This document shows, in pieces, positions 6,950 through 61,147 of a stretch of DNA of 64,000 nt. This stretch comes from Eledone cirrhosa (taxonomy: Eukaryota). The stretch covers positions 31,992,001 through 32,056,000 of the forward strand of contig OZ024744.1 in NCBI GenBank assembly GCA_964016885.1. Reading direction: 5' to 3'. Every line of letters starts with the position of its first letter. Position 1 is the stretch's first letter. The notes below the pieces were generated by a model. That model was not told where the DNA came from. It saw nothing but the letters and a program-made list of their open reading frames with translations, and searched no databases. The position numbers and the translations under genes are program-made.

Positions 6950-8110
6950 TTAAAATAACAGATTAAAGTTTAAGCAAACAATCGCTGCTTTCACCCTTAA
7001 CGAGATCTTCTGAAACTAAAAAAATCAATCTGTGAACGCAGAAGTAAATATTTCGAAAAACGTTGCAAGCGAAGGAAGATAGGAAGATGATACTTTGCTT
7101 AGTGGCAAAGTACCCTGGCAGAGAACGAAAAATAAATCGAAGATAATACGTTATTATTTTGAGCTGTGAAAACAATTACACGCAAAGACAAAATCAGGTT
7201 CATGTTATAAATGAAGTCGTAGACTAATATTCTATTAGGTGGTTCGTGGAGACGTTCTCAGGCAATGAACGGAAAAAACGAAGATAATACGTCATTATGT
7301 GGAGCGGGAGAACAATTACACGCAAAGACAAAACCACGTTTATGGTATAACTGAAGTCGTAGACTTAGGAAACCAAATAATTCTCGGTTTCAGAGTTAAT
7401 AAATTACAGAGGTTATTGAAATCAACAATAATTAAATATATAGATGCACGCATCCATATACGTACATACACATGCATACGTGGAAACACCTGCCATGGGT
7501 ATGCAAATACAGGCACGTAACAAAACCACGCGCACACATACAAAAAACTCACGTAACGCCTGTACCCGCAGACATACGAACGTATACACCAAATACACAT
7601 AAAACATATAAATTAAAAAATAATATGTATAAATACATATATATATATAAAATATCTCGGAAGTTGTTTTTCGCTAATTTCCAATAGCCGAAATACGATT
7701 CTCGCTAATTTATATTTATATAAAATATATATATACATACATGTGTGTGTGTGCGCGTATACATATTATTATATAAACATATATAAATATACACACATAA
7801 ATACGTATATAACGCGCGCACACACACACACTCACTTGTAAATACACATATGTTCGCTAAACGTACGTAAAAAAACCCACAAAGTACACATATACGCACA
7901 CCCTACATACTTGCAAACTCGCATACTCACGTATGACGTAAAACTCACGTATAAACCTAACCATATACACATATACCAGTATATATGATAAATATATACG
8001 CCTATAACGAATACAAGAAAATATACGTACGAGAAAGTATACGTAACTTCACAAAACATACGAGTAAGGTATACGGGTATGTAATGGTATAAACATAAAA
8101 TATACTTAGC
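6950..8110. repeat. Dispersed repeat, probably the 3' UTR/pLTR of the adjacent PLE; second copy 27231-28349, inverted partial copy 9248-9480
   Basis: Both copies start TAAAATAACAGATTAAAG after (TA)n and stay collinear through a CA/TA-rich region. Confidence 0.75.
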
Positions 8111-8192
8111 TACCACATCAAGACGTAAATCGACCGCGTATAGTTCGTACTATCCATGAGGATATAATGTAGGGCTGTAATACAGGAAAGTT

Positions 8193-9250
8193 TTATGCCA
8201 TTTGTTTAGCAGCTGAAATTGTCTCAGATTTTTTGTTTAAGATGTGGTCATTGGTGTAGAGTATTTCCAGGTCTTCAGCGGCGCAGAGGTCACATGGTCT
8301 TTTATTTCCGTTATACGATCTAGCCTTAGCTAGGATCTCCCGGTGTACCCTATATTGGGTGTGGTTGTCTTTTAGACTCCAGATATAAGCTGAAAGTGAC
8401 GTCATATTCCTTCTTAAAGGGTTTAGAAAAGAATGGGTATGCATGTAAAGACGCTGCTTGAATTTATTGGCGGTTAACCCTATGTAGGCCCTACGGGACG
8501 TGGATGTCTCAACCTTACATTTGTAGACAATGTTATTAGAGAGGCATTTGCCGGATAGGGGGCAGTCAACCGATTCCTACAATTACAGTTAGTACTAGCT
8601 ACAGGGTTGCACGTGTTCCTACGACTAGGTAATTTAGCTAAATTTGAAGCAGTGATGTTATGTGCAAGGTTAAGAGGCGTAGAGTAAACAATGCTAATGG
8701 TATTTCTATTAAAAATGTTATTATATTTATGTGCTGGGGGAAATGCTTCATAATAAGGGAGAGAAAGATCTTCGCTAATGGTAGGGCCACCTCAATATTA
8801 TATGGTGCGTTATACCATATAATGCGTCGGGATCTATTTTCCCTAGGTCTATGCTCATACGCGGTATATGCTACCTTATCGACAAATCCACTCCAAGCAA
8901 GAGCTTCATTGTAATATGTGGAATGGTCGGTGAAAATATGCTCGTTTGTAGATAGACGAGAAAGCCTCAAACAAACGTTTCTTACAAGGTTATTGGTTAT
9001 GCTGGCAGGATGGTTAGAATGCTTGCTTATGTAATTAAGCGTATCATTCGGCCTTCTATACGGGTAGTGCAAGCCATTCGACAAATTGAGGGTAACGTCG
9101 AGGTAATTAACAACCGAGAGGTTGGCCTCAAACTGTATGGAGGGGTTGAAGCCTTTAAAGAAGGCTGTGAGTTCTTTTCTGAACCTGTCGCAAGCCCGTG
9201 AGCCGCACTTTGTCATGGTCAAAAGACCGTCATCACGGTACAAACCACAT
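8193..9250 (-). mobile_element. Penelope-like element 3' fragment (RT catalytic/thumb region plus GIY-YIG), frameshifted
   Basis: GLYRDDGL, VNYLDVTLNL, IIWYNAPY; then CPLSGKCLSNNIVYKC...AYIGLT..FKQR in another frame. Confidence 0.85.
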
Positions 9251-9514
9251 GTGTATACGTGAGTTTTGCGTTTGTGTGTGTATGCGGGTTTGCACGTATG
9301 TAGGGTGCGTGTATATGCGTACTTTGTGGGGTTTTTTACGTACGTTTGGCGAACGTATGTGTATTTACATGTGGGTGTGTGTGCGCGCGTTATATACGTA
9401 TTTATGTGTGTATATTTATATACGTTTATATAATTATATGTATACGCGCACACACACACATGTATATATATATATATTTTATATATATATATATATATAT
9501 ATATATATATATAT

Positions 9515-10375
9515 ATAAACGGAAAAAATGAAACGAAATTTCATTTCCCACTCTTAGTACGGCTGTTACTTAAATATAAGTATGTACACGTACATACATA
9601 TATGTATACAGACGTACAGTAGTATGCATATATATATATATAACAGTAGTATGTATACATATATACATACATGCACACATATATATATGTACGTATCGAT
9701 TCACCGAACATTTATCATAATGCTCGGTGTGTTTGTAAACAAACATCCCGTATTAAGCCGTAATGTCTAGCAACCATCGTTGCTCGTTTGTTCAACACTG
9801 ACAAAGGAACGCTGGACAAGTTTCAAGCTTATTAGCTATCGTCAGCAACATATACCTTCCTGCCAGTTTGTTGAACGTATATACTTACCTTATGAATATT
9901 AACGGCTGAGTAGCCCAATTTGCATATCGAGTCTGTTAATCGGCCGGGTGCACCGAAAACGATAAACGGAAGAAATGAAACGAAATTTCATTTCCCACTC
10001 TTAGTACGGTTGTTACTTAAATATAAGTATGTACACGTACATACATATATGTATACCGACGTACAGTAGTATGTATATATATACAACAGTAGTATGTATA
10101 CATATATACATACATGCACACATATATATATGTACGTATGGATTTACCGAACATTTATAATAATGCTCGGTGTGTTTGTAAACAAACATCCCGTATTAAG
10201 CCGTAGTGTCTAGCAACCATCGTTGCTCGTTTGTTCAACACTGACAAAGGAACGCTGTACTAGTTTCAAGCTTATTAGCTATCGTCAGCAACGTATACCT
10301 TCCTGCCAGATTGTTGAACGTATATACTTACCTTATGCATATTAACGGCTGAGTAGCCCAATTTGCATATCGAGT
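9515..10375 (-). mobile_element. About two tandem ~448-bp diverged units of the HHR-bearing 490-bp repeat family
   Basis: Collinear with the array unit. HHR on minus at ~10250-10293 reads ACGTTG CTGACGA TAGCTAATAAGCTT GAAA CTAG TA CAGCGT. Confidence 0.85.
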
Positions 10376-59253: not shown

Positions 59254-59311
59254 TCGTCTGAAGAGCTTAGGCTATCATAACTGATAGTCCTCAGTGAAAT
59301 ATGTATAACGG
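59254..59311 (+). ncRNA. Type I hammerhead
   Basis: TCGT CTGAAGA GCT..GGCTATCA-TAAC-TGATAGTC..AGT GAAA TATGTA TA ACGG. Confidence 0.7.
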
Positions 59312-59469
59312 AGTTTCAAATAAAACTGAATCAACTGATTATAGCCTCCGATCTTTCCCATTTCAGCCTCCTGTCATCACACGTGTACACGACACAAGAA
59401 GAAGAAGAAGAAGAAGAAGAAGAAGAAGAAGAAGAAGATATATGTGTGTGTGTCTCTGTGTATCTATGA

Positions 59470-59790
59470 AGGCACATGGCGTAGCGATTAAATAGTTGAA
59501 TTTACAATCGCAAGGTTATGAGTTCAATTCCGAATCAGGTGATGCCTTTTGACCTTGAACACGACAATCTATTTCACGTGGCTCCCGTTGACTCTGCTCT
59601 AGAAATGAGTTGCGACGTTATTGGTGCCAAGCTGTATCAGCCTTAGCCTTTCCGTTGGACAACATCGGTGGCGTGGAGAGGGGAGGCTGGTATGGGTGGA
59701 TGACTGCTGGTCTTCCACAAACAACGTTGCCTGGACTTGTGTCTCGGAGGGGAACTTTCTAGGTGCAAAACTCATGACGGTAAGAGGTCT
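59470..59790 (+). mobile_element. Second tRNA-derived SINE family, degenerate
   Basis: TGGCGTAGCGA A-box-like and GAGTTCAATTCC B-box-like motifs. Confidence 0.6.
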
Positions 59791-60289
59791 ATAAAATATA
59801 AAATATTGAAGGACTAAAAGCCCAAAACCAGTGTTTTATTCAACATTTTTAATCTTAAAAGAGCTTCATCAGAAAATAGGTATCAAATACTCTTTCTTTG
59901 TTCCAAAACAGAAACTTTTTGTGCACTGGTTAAGTGTCGGACAAACTGAAATTGAAGTTTGAAAATCAAAAGCCTTAGTGGATATCACCTGGCCAGGAGA
60001 TATCGATTATGATCTTTGCTTCTTCAAACGCCAATTCCTGCTTGTTCGAAGGTTAATTAACGTTAAACACCTTTCTGTAATATATATATATATATATATA
60101 TATATATATATATATATATATAAGTTTATCCCGGGTTCAATCGGGGGTAACTACAGTAAGTAAGGTACTCAATACAAAGCCAGAGTATAAATATTTAATA
60201 TAGAAAAGGCTTCTACAGGACTAGAACTGTTTCATTCGGGAGAAATATATATATATATATATATACATGTAGAAAAAAAAAAAAAAAAA

Positions 60290-61147
60290 ACGCCTACATA
60301 CTTATACAATTTTTATTCGCTAACAATGTTTCATCCATACCGTCGGGTAGGTATCCTCAGAGCGTAATTAATAAAAAATATAGTGCTGAATATAAGCTCT
60401 ACCAAGCTTAGTCACCGGAACAGTAGAGAAACTGTACAGGATAGCATGAGTGAGATTGGATAAGAGAAGAATGGAGAGAATGCGTACTGGGTTTAATAGT
60501 CAACATTATAACAAACCATGATAATACAATAACACAAGCAGATTTTCCCACAAGAGACTGTGAAGGCAAACAAAAGCAATCTTAAGCACATAAAGATAAT
60601 TAAAAAAATATATATATAAAAAAGAGAATTTTAAGAGAAATAATTTTAAAATAATTGGAAGTAATTAAAAATAATTAAAAAATAAATAAAAAAACTTTTT
60701 AAAAATGTAAAGGAATTGAAACATTTAAAAATTACAAAAATATAAGTAAAAATATTTAAAAATATTTAAAAGAAAATTTAAAAAAATTTTAAAACCTAAA
60801 ATTTAAAAATTAAAAATTATTATATTCATATATTCACCAATACATACCAGCAAATATGGTGTTATGTGCTGCAAGCTCCAGATTGTGGGAAAATCTGCTT
60901 GTGTTATTGTATTATCATGGTTTGTTATAATGTTGACTATTAAACCCAGTACGCATTCTCTCCATTCTTCTCCTATCCAATCTCACTCATGCTATCCTGT
61001 ACAGTTTCTCTACTGTTCTGGTGACCAAGCTTGGTAGAGCTTATATTCAGCAATATATTTTTTATTAATTACGCTCTGAGGATACCTGCCCGACGGTATG
61101 GATGAAACATTGTTAGCGAATAAAAATTGTATAAGTATGTAGGCGTT
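60290..61147. repeat. ~262-bp inverted repeat (60290-60552 / 60884-61147) with an HHR in each arm (60318-60364 minus, 61072-61118 plus), upstream of a PLE ORF
   Basis: CGCT CTGAGGA TACC..GGTA.. GAAA CATTG TT AGCG. Confidence 0.8.

What the first reader, a model, noticed from the sequence alone, without database searches (positions are those of the whole stretch)
6950..61147. One '3'-ends-outward' inverted architecture at every scale, tied to HHRs and (TA)n
Seen: inverted pairs at 7.7-9.5k, 15-25.6k, 28.35-28.63k, 36.5-37.3k, 45.05-45.2k, 45.53-45.64k, 45.7-50.5k, 52.21-52.34k, 52.81-53.13k, 53.25-56.5k, 58.93-59.06k and 60.3-61.15k. Wherever sense can be assigned from an ORF or HHR, both arms read away from the axis, and most pairs are bounded by (TA)n. 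Inference: (TA)n-targeting PLEs and HHR-bearing parasites continually deposit long hairpins. If transcribed, for example in an intron, these would be dsRNA substrates for ADAR or Dicer, which matters if the host is a coleoid cephalopod.
Basis: partly seen in the sequence, partly recalled or inferred. Interest (0 to 1): 0.7.

Follow-up and report, generated by a model that had tools for sequence, protein, structure and literature searches.

The report
Twin-primed Penelope and retrozyme palindromes
The mirror-image repeats in this animal DNA are insertions of a known kind of jumping gene and its ribozyme-carrying passengers into TA repeats, almost always with one long and one short end, a pattern that likely arises because both cut DNA strands start copying the same RNA; the suggested role in RNA editing is untested.

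Summary
All 12 inverted pairs exist. They are insertions of Penelope-like elements (PLEs) and of non-coding families that follow the same layout, including a 10.5-kb palindrome of a 490-bp hammerhead unit (retrozyme; 8.7 + 12.8 copies). Head-to-head polarity, a one-sided tail and (TA)n targets are published PLE traits. The hammerhead link is partial: 4 of 12 pairs by a strict scan. Genome-wide, five families give 131 pairs joining one tail-plus end with one tail-minus end, against 1 with like ends. Either arm can be the longer. Both arms share locus-specific variants (microsatellite length equal in 9 of 27 loci, 0.9 expected). In one coding PLE family both arms stop within one 16-nt zone in 14 of 16 short inserts. 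Best explanation (0.7): both nicked target strands prime reverse transcription at two fixed sites on one RNA, and the two cDNAs are end-joined. Fold-back self-priming plus central deletion remains possible (0.15). No RNA data were available, so the ADAR/Dicer idea is untested. This scan's earlier notes reached the same twin-priming reading on other DNA, in this and other genomes.

The parts
15063..19341 (-). Retrozyme array, long-end arm: 8.7 copies of a 490-bp type I hammerhead unit; 3' end at site A (unit 490) joined to (TA)n
19342..19349 (.). Axis of the 10.5-kb palindrome; 11-nt local duplication (19331-19352) with 3-nt microhomology; arms start at different unit positions (134 and 49)
19350..25614 (+). 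Retrozyme array, short-end arm: 12.8 copies; 3' end at site B (unit 432, 58 nt upstream of A) joined to (TA)n
36534..37292 (.). Second A/B head-to-head insertion of the same retrozyme family (92% to the first); axis on an 8-nt palindrome of the unit
45662..49525 (-). Coding PLE, long-end arm: 5'-truncated ORF with RT motifs, Asn-rich insert, CX4CX2C linker and C-terminal GIY-YIG with CCHH; 3' repeat with hammerhead (45916) and 56-nt tail into (TA)n
49526..50505 (+). Inverted short-end arm of the same PLE (980 bp, 99.8%), hammerhead at 50307, no tail, ends in (TA)43
52213..52416 (+). 3' tip of a non-coding family as a 127-bp palindrome plus 77-nt tail on the right; TA on both sides; no hammerhead found
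45493..45643 (-). Older copy of the 52.2 k family, tail on the left, short end on TA at the right
52808..53218 (+). Palindrome with a hammerhead-like motif in each arm (52908 -, 53030 +) plus 83-nt tail on the right; TA on both sides
53250..56548 (.). GIY-YIG PLE 3' fragments head-to-head (97%); about 35-nt tail on the right, also present in the homologue ending at 36349; TA on both sides; family not tested genome-wide
58890..59059 (-). 3' tip of a 514-bp tandem-unit family as a 130-bp palindrome plus 40-nt tail on the left; TA on both sides; no hammerhead found
60270..61166 (.). Inverted short-end repeat next to the 5' repeat of a PLE whose ORF pieces start at 61301 (+); the insertion's long end lies about 1.7 kb beyond the window, on TA
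6950..9494 (-). PLE RT-thumb/GIY-YIG fragment with 3' UTR ending on (TA)40 at 6950 and an inverted UTR piece (9251-9494) that ends at an internal TA-rich point, about 750 nt short: does not fit the short-tail rule
28328..28813 (.). Inverted fragments of a longer AT-rich repeat family, mostly not inverted elsewhere; axis varies between copies; outward polarity inferred only
45054..45290 (+). Old (about 80%) family with variable 5' truncation and 3' ends often on TA; inverted arm here and in some other copies; polarity inferred only
9515..10376 (-). Single-armed retrozyme copy (443-bp unit, 1.9 copies) with site-A end on TA; further single arms at 11005-11465, 33403-34030, 51286-51727, 52001-52190

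Best explanation
The inverted pairs are insertions of Penelope-like elements and their non-coding passengers into (TA)n tracts, each joining a tail-plus end to a tail-minus end, and they are likely made by twin priming: both nicked target strands prime reverse transcription at two fixed sites on the same RNA. Shown: outer ends fall at two family-specific positions 40-115 nt apart (A and B), both on TA; pairs are A/B; the arms are independent in length and in inner end; the arms share locus-specific variants. From published work: a PLE protein nicks and extends both strands, starts at two internal RNA sites that bound the tail, and is predicted to be a dimer (PMC11167929). Inferred: one active site starts at B and the other at A; the A-primed copy either stops at B (tail-only arm) or displaces the first cDNA (PLE RT has no RNase H domain; recalled); both run to the RNA 5' end or fall off; the two cDNA 3' ends are joined with little or no homology, giving a head-to-head palindrome. 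On a circular or uncleaved multimeric retrozyme RNA the same process would give two opposed tandem arrays such as 15063-25614. The hairpins are by-products of insertion, not a selected dsRNA device.
For: End rule: retrozyme, first 40 of 299 A ends: 24 with inverted 5' partner, 19 ending at B, 0 at A, 5 elsewhere; first 40 of 1528 B ends: 29 with partner, 23 at A, 1 at B, 5 elsewhere. Loci picked by the hammerhead region, not by ends: 8 of 11 A/B by script, a ninth by eye. Coding PLE family of 45.7 k: 16 of 30 A-anchored loci with partner at B; 20 of 30 B-anchored with partner at A, 7 of them already counted; 6 of 9 long loci A/B; no like-ended pair. 52.2 k family 21 of 30, all B; 52.8 k family 17 of 26; 58.9 k family 5 of 30 clear. 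Independence: of 52 A/B retrozyme loci, B lies within A in 18, A within B in 8, neither in 26; inner ends coincide within 3 nt in only 4 of 52. Same template: arm-to-arm divergence below the median to other loci in 22 of 24; internal microsatellite length equal in both arms in 9 of 27, permutation mean 0.88, max 5 in 20,000. Common stop: both arms end 310-325 nt upstream of A in 14 of 16 short inserts of the 45.7 k family, at a non-palindromic stretch, staggered either way; in the 52.2 k family no B arm passes -143. Sites B and A lie in the first 30 codons of the ORF, as in PMC11167929 and PMC3846280. 5 of 11 short A arms begin at unit 430-437, i.e. at site B (post hoc). Template uncleaved or circular: 29 of 52 A arms and 33 of 52 B arms cross the hammerhead cut; 1 of 106 inner ends lies at it.
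Against: All evidence is genomic pattern; no biochemistry or RNA. 27 of 80 retrozyme ends have no detectable inverted partner and 10 of 53 partners end elsewhere; one pair is B/B. Asymmetric central deletion of an originally perfect fold-back palindrome could also produce arms that are not nested. Arm similarity could reflect two RNAs from one active source, or gene conversion; private shared variants are few (5 sites against 50 arm-private ones), own arms were strictly closest in only 8 of 24, and in 2 of 24 not closer than the median. PMC11167929 found no difference in start site between top and bottom strand and does not report pairing. An identical junction recurs in 7 loci of the 52.8 k family across two subfamilies, unexplained and also compatible with a preformed palindrome moving as a unit. 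The 7.7 k pair does not fit the short-tail rule. Samples are the first or best-scoring hits (the 80 end-anchored retrozyme loci all on one chromosome), not a census. No sequence link between the retrozyme and a coding PLE of the window was found.
Confidence: 0.7

Rival explanations
1. Fold-back or self-priming: one strand is made first and then copies itself (or an antisense RNA self-primes, as proposed in PMC3846280), stopping at B; later asymmetric deletion at the unstable axis makes the arms unequal.
For: Explains arm identity directly. Some axes sit on short palindromes of the unit (4 of 52 with coincident inner ends; 36.5 k in the window). Near-symmetric short inserts in three families. 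18 of 52 loci have B nested in A.
Against: B is longer than A minus the tail in 28 of 42 loci, by 2 kb in the window's >99% identical array and by 14 units at one other locus. Young inserts of the 45.7 k family stay symmetric within 15 nt, so large central deletions are not the norm. Their axis is not a palindrome and B often extends further than A. Both sites are initiation sites in vitro for a related protein (PMC11167929).
Confidence: 0.15
2. Twin priming on two separate RNA molecules held by an asymmetric dimer (for example paired through the palindromic helix III of the hammerhead), one positioned at A and one at B.
For: Explains overlapping arms without strand displacement; minimal type I hammerheads are described as dimers (PMC4209133); two loci have arms no closer to each other than to the median other arm.
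Against: Equal microsatellite lengths in both arms with locus-specific values and tail-only A arms stopping at B favour one RNA; families with no hammerhead found obey the same rule.
Confidence: 0.1
3. Assembly artefact (fold-back reads) or later rearrangement of independent insertions piled into the same TA tract.
For: The copy number of a near-identical array can be misassembled; the 19.34 k axis has no read support here; TA tracts do collect independent insertions (5 of 80 tail-to-tail neighbours).
Against: Neither process yields 131 A/B against 1 like-ended pair in five families, staggered inner ends, or arms diverged 5-20% in older pairs.
Confidence: 0.04
4. The hairpins are retained because read-through transcripts form dsRNA that feeds ADAR or Dicer. 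This is a separate question from how they arise.
For: Arms of 97-99.9% identity and up to 4 kb would pair if co-transcribed (sequence); host compatible with an octopod.
Against: No host exon was recognised among the 84 ORFs of 100 aa or more (by eye, short exons not examined); the layout is fully accounted for by insertion mechanism; no sign of conservation was tested.
Confidence: 0.1

Closest known systems
Endonuclease-bearing PLE insertions with inverted pLTR and one-sided tail (PMC3846280; PMC8557442 Fig. 2 legend; passages read)
   Same: Head-to-head inverted 5'-truncated copy, tail on one end only, AT-rich or (TA)n targets, Asn-rich inserts in the ORF, tail overlapping the ORF start.
   Different: Tails here are 40-115 nt, not 30-40; pairing of tail-plus with tail-minus ends is counted here and is nearly strict; PMC3846280 proposed self-priming on an antisense template, which the arm lengths here disfavour.
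Poseidon element PAc in vitro (PMC11167929; main text read)
   Same: Two internal start sites bounding the tail, near the ORF start; both strands nicked and extended; uncleaved RNA used as template; AT-rich target.
   Different: That paper's main text does not link the two sites to the inverted architecture or report one-of-each pairing; supplements not read.
Metazoan non-LTR retrozymes (PMC7229834 passages; 10.64898/2026.07.22.740005 first fifth plus passages)
   Same: Non-coding tandem unit, GC about 35%, one type I hammerhead per unit with short palindromic helix III; a U-U mismatch at the base of helix II as in the axolotl Amex2 motif; proposed PLE dependence.
   Different: Unit of 490 bp is above the 150-450 bp range given; arrays here are mostly two opposed arrays with fixed PLE-type ends in (TA)n. 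'Inverted' occurs 0 times in PMC7229834 (listing) and once, in a reference title, in the preprint. Circular RNA not shown here.
LINE-1 twin priming (recalled, no paper read)
   Same: Both target strands prime; 3' ends point outward; 5' parts joined by microhomology.
   Different: In L1 the second primer anneals at chance internal sites and the halves do not overlap; here both starts are fixed and the arms usually overlap extensively.
Opposite-strand minimal hammerhead pairs in Schistosoma PLEs (PMC4209133 passage)
   Same: Two hammerheads 100-700 bp apart on opposite strands, as at 36.5 k and 52.8 k; bulged base 5' of helix II as in the 45.7 k motif.
   Different: Noted there without end analysis or mechanism in the passages read.

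Membership tests
EN+ Penelope-like element (45.7 k) | Single ORF with PLE-type RT and C-terminal GIY-YIG endonuclease | tested here: met
   RT motifs and GIY-YIG/CCHH read in the translation; atlas neighbours carry HTH_animal, GIY-YIG, RVT_1; homologues to E 1e-130. Pfam gave no hit for this ORF but GIY-YIG for the 54.5 k and 13.1 k fragments (2 of 7 proteins).
EN+ Penelope-like element (45.7 k) | Partial tandem (pLTR) structure, 5' truncation, inverted copy, one-sided tail | tested here: met
   Tandem continuation into the ORF start at 3 of 9 long loci; inverted B arms; 56-nt tail.
EN+ Penelope-like element (45.7 k) | Hammerhead motif in the pLTR | tested here: met
   Type I motif at 45916 (-) and 50307 (+); cleavage not assayed.
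Neptune/Nematis clades | CX2-5CxxC linker upstream of GIY-YIG plus CCHH | tested here: met
   Seen in the translations of the 45.7 k and 54.5 k ORFs (definition from PMC8557442).
Neptune/Nematis clades | RT phylogeny places it in the clade | not tested
Non-LTR retrozyme (490-bp unit) | Tandem non-coding unit with a type I hammerhead in every copy | tested here: met
   21 motifs in the 15-25.6 k array; no coding ORF.
Non-LTR retrozyme (490-bp unit) | Monomer 150-450 bp, GC under 45% | tested here: inconclusive
   GC about 35%; unit 490 bp here, 443 bp in another copy, size driven by an internal microsatellite.
Non-LTR retrozyme (490-bp unit) | Self-cleavage and expression as circular RNA | not testable with these tools
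   No RNA holder listed.
MITE / fold-back DNA transposon (short hairpins) | Fixed symmetric element with terminal inverted repeats moving as a unit | tested here: not met
   52.2, 52.8, 58.9, 28.35 and 45.05 k hairpins are pieces of longer families with variable axes and unequal ends; a recurrent junction in the 52.8 k family is the exception.
ADAR/Dicer substrate | Co-transcription of both arms; A-to-I clusters or small RNAs | not testable with these tools
   No RNA run of this organism served.

The most novel reading that the evidence does not exclude
Every complete PLE-type insertion is made by an asymmetric two-site machine in which two reverse transcriptases, primed from the two target strands at fixed sites A and B, copy one RNA one behind the other; on a circular retrozyme this is a double rolling circle that writes a multi-kilobase palindromic satellite in a single event. 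This would explain the tail, the inverted pLTR and the birth of hammerhead satellites by one mechanism, and in an octopod it would continuously seed perfect dsRNA-capable loci.
Probability: 0.45. Interest if true: 0.7.

Novelty: new variant of a known kind. Interest (0 to 1): 0.42.

Why it matters
How PLEs form their tandem/inverted structures and one-sided tail is named as open in PMC8557442 and PMC11167929. A near-strict pairing of two start sites, shared variants in both arms and a common inner stop turn this into a direct test in the existing in vitro system. The same footprint on retrozyme arrays is insertion-level evidence that PLE machinery mobilises them, beyond the co-occurrence and sequence similarity reported so far. 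The shape itself is known, the scan has reached this reading before, and the RNA-editing link, which would raise interest, has no data.

Tried and rejected
RNA test: no RNA holder listed for the unit; the one RNA run offered (another organism code) laid 0 reads, which is no test. Axis check: no contig of 4 runs bridged 19341-19350; contigs show presence only and these carry other variants, so this is no evidence either way. High summed contig depth in three runs of unknown kind was not used. Rfam: dominated by microsatellite-driven miRNA matches below gathering scores, disregarded. First genome-wide end mapping by unmasked BLAST was swamped by TA matches and replaced by k-mer mapping. MITE reading of the short hairpins rejected. 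Hammerhead cut as the inner end rejected for the retrozyme (1 of 106); one long locus of the 45.7 k family does start within 2 nt of the cut. Search for the PLE that mobilises the retrozyme: only low-complexity matches to four window families. No ORF linking the 52.2 k family to a coding PLE in 5 long copies. Strand bias of A ends: 158 forward, 141 reverse genome-wide, none. Literature searches for a published twin-priming model of PLEs or inverted retrozyme arrays showed none in the listings; the library lacks most subscription papers (Arkhipova 2006, Evgen'ev and Arkhipova 2005 and Lunse 2017 were not read), and no supplements were read; Figs S1-S2 of PMC11167929 may bear on end pairing. (editing in octopus repeats) was seen as a listing only.

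
Full report
1. Observation. Self-comparison confirms all 12 inverted pairs and adds five short ones. The window lies in a 3.0-Gb animal assembly; the best named homologue of the 45.7 k protein is from Octopus vulgaris at 66%, compatible with an octopod. Type I hammerhead motifs are enriched: 14 in the non-redundant window against 0.01 in 100 shuffles. They occur in only 4 of the 12 pairs by that scan. (TA)n lies within 100 bp of both ends in 7 of 12 pairs, one end in 3 and neither in 2; the background is 20% per position. 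Polarity is outward in all 7 pairs with an ORF or hammerhead-like core and is inferred outward in the other five.

2. What the parts are. 15063-25614 is a 490-bp non-coding unit with one hammerhead, 8.7 copies on the minus strand and 12.8 on the plus strand; 15 of 20 full units match the reference unit exactly. The left arm ends at unit position 490 (site A), the right at 432 (site B), both on TA. The 92%-identical copy at 36534-37292 has the same two ends. 45662-50505 is a coding PLE: a long arm with RT and GIY-YIG and a 56-nt tail, and an inverted 980-bp arm without the tail. In tandem copies elsewhere, B and A fall in the first 30 codons of the ORF. The short hairpins at 52.2, 52.8 and 58.9 k are 3' tips of longer families, each with a tail on one side (77, 83 and 40 nt). 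60.3 k is the inverted repeat next to a PLE whose long end lies beyond the window, with a tail of about 115 nt. 28.35 and 45.05 k are inverted fragments of longer, variably truncated families. The 7.7 k pair is outward but its short arm ends about 750 nt early.

3. Genome-wide test. For the retrozyme I took the first 40 of 299 exact A ends and the first 40 of 1528 B ends, all on one chromosome. 53 of 80 have an inverted arm joined at the 5' side: 42 pair A with B, 1 pairs B with B, none A with A, 10 end elsewhere (several look interrupted by later insertions or expanded internal TA, by eye); 27 have no partner; 5 have a tail-to-tail neighbour within 100 bp. Of 11 loci chosen by the hammerhead region alone, 8 are A/B by script, one more by eye, two single-armed. 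With the two window copies this gives 52 A/B loci. The 45.7 k family gives 36 distinct A/B insertions including the window's (16 of 30 A-anchored, 13 new among 20 of 30 B-anchored, 6 of 9 long loci) and no like-ended pair. The 52.2 k family gives 21 of 30, the 52.8 k family 17 of 26 (two may be one duplicated locus) with 2 ending elsewhere, the 58.9 k family 5 of 30 with 3 unclear. Total 131 against 1. These are samples of top or first hits, anchored mostly on TA-joined ends, not a census.

4. Mechanism. A fold-back copy must be nested in its template. Of 52 loci, B is within A in 18, A within B in 8, neither in 26; B exceeds A minus the tail in 28 of 42; inner ends coincide in 4 of 52. Central deletion could undo nesting, but young inserts of the 45.7 k family remain symmetric within 15 nt: both arms stop 310-325 nt upstream of A in 14 of 16, at a stretch that is not a palindrome, with either arm the longer. 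I read that stop as the RNA 5' end (inferred; nearby promoter-like motifs resemble NRF1 and YY1 sites, names recalled, not tested). The arms come from the same template variant: divergence between arms is below the median to other loci in 22 of 24, strictly lowest in 8, tied in 9; 5 private shared sites against 50 arm-private ones; internal microsatellite length is equal in 9 of 27 against 0.88 by permutation. 5 of 11 short A arms start at unit 430-437, where a B primer would sit on the same RNA (post hoc, prompted by note e1-9509635). Junctions show overlap of 2 nt or more in 18 of 53, 1 nt in 10, none in 4, insertions in 21; no null was computed, so microhomology is not established. Most arms cross the hammerhead cut and only 1 of 106 inner ends lies at it, so the template was circular or uncleaved; the data do not separate these. 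Together with in vitro nicking and extension of both strands from two internal start sites (PMC11167929), twin priming on one RNA is the best account (0.7). Against it: untested biochemically, a third of ends lack a partner, and one junction recurs in 7 loci of the 52.8 k family.

5. Comparison with what is known. Head-to-head inverted repeats, a tail on one of them and Asn-rich inserts are in PMC3846280 (passages), which proposed self-priming; the inverted 5'-truncated copy, one-sided tail and (TA)n targeting are in PMC8557442 (passages) and summarised in PMC8969392 (passages); opposite-strand hammerhead pairs in PMC4209133 (passages). Retrozymes are described as tandem arrays (PMC7229834 passages; 10.64898/2026.07.22.740005 first of five parts and passages). 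Searches showed no paper on opposed retrozyme arrays or on pairing of the two start sites; coverage is limited to open papers and no supplements were read. After recording my reading I looked up the scan's notes: several reach the same twin-priming reading on other DNA, one on a 490-base unit in another genome and two in this genome. They are not independent support.

6. The ADAR/Dicer idea. No RNA of this organism was available, and no host gene was recognised in the window. Outward polarity means hairpin RNA would need host read-through (inference). The idea is neither supported nor refuted.

7. Verdict. Real feature; known PLE architecture; new in its extension to retrozyme arrays and in the near-strict one-of-each end rule, which makes an open mechanistic question testable. 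New variant of a known kind, interest 0.42.

Noticed in passing
window 9515, 15063, 33403, 36534, 51286, 52001: All six retrozyme site-A ends in the window lie on the minus strand, although genome-wide counts are balanced (158 and 141); other families in the window are mixed. Possibly chance.
   Followed up: partly
L159, L161, L162, L165, L166, L168, L169 (52.8 k family): The same inner junction recurs at seven loci with different flanks and in two subfamilies whose variants are shared by both arms: a joining hotspot or preformed palindromes that move as a unit.
   Followed up: partly
window 1816-3402 (-): 3' part of a non-LTR element with a restriction-like endonuclease motif ending at a (TACA)n tract, R4/Dong-like by eye (name recalled); interrupted by a 200-N gap.
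   Followed up: no
window 6630-6950: A 111-bp period made of TA tracts and a 41-bp piece of the 53.25 k family's 3' region, repeated twice.
   Followed up: no
window 51286-51727 (-): Divergent relative of the retrozyme with its own hammerhead (the only Rfam HH9 hit shown), single-armed with TA on both sides; the same motif occurs in L212.
   Followed up: partly
L070, L071: Other elements have inserted into the retrozyme's internal TA tract, so each insertion supplies new targets; this may explain the dense nesting in the window.
   Followed up: partly
L133, L146 and window 58890-59059: A pyrimidine-rich 514-bp tandem unit with two fixed ends 40 nt apart but no type I hammerhead by my scan: a retrozyme-like passenger without a recognised ribozyme.
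   Followed up: partly
window 30782-32562 and 43584-44120: Minisatellite arrays (19-bp and about 31-bp periods) unrelated to the inverted pairs.
   Followed up: no
L330-L331 (G000:C4 near 376.069 Mb): One arm of the 45.7 k family starts within 2 nt of the predicted hammerhead cut, suggesting a cleaved RNA served as template once.
   Followed up: partly
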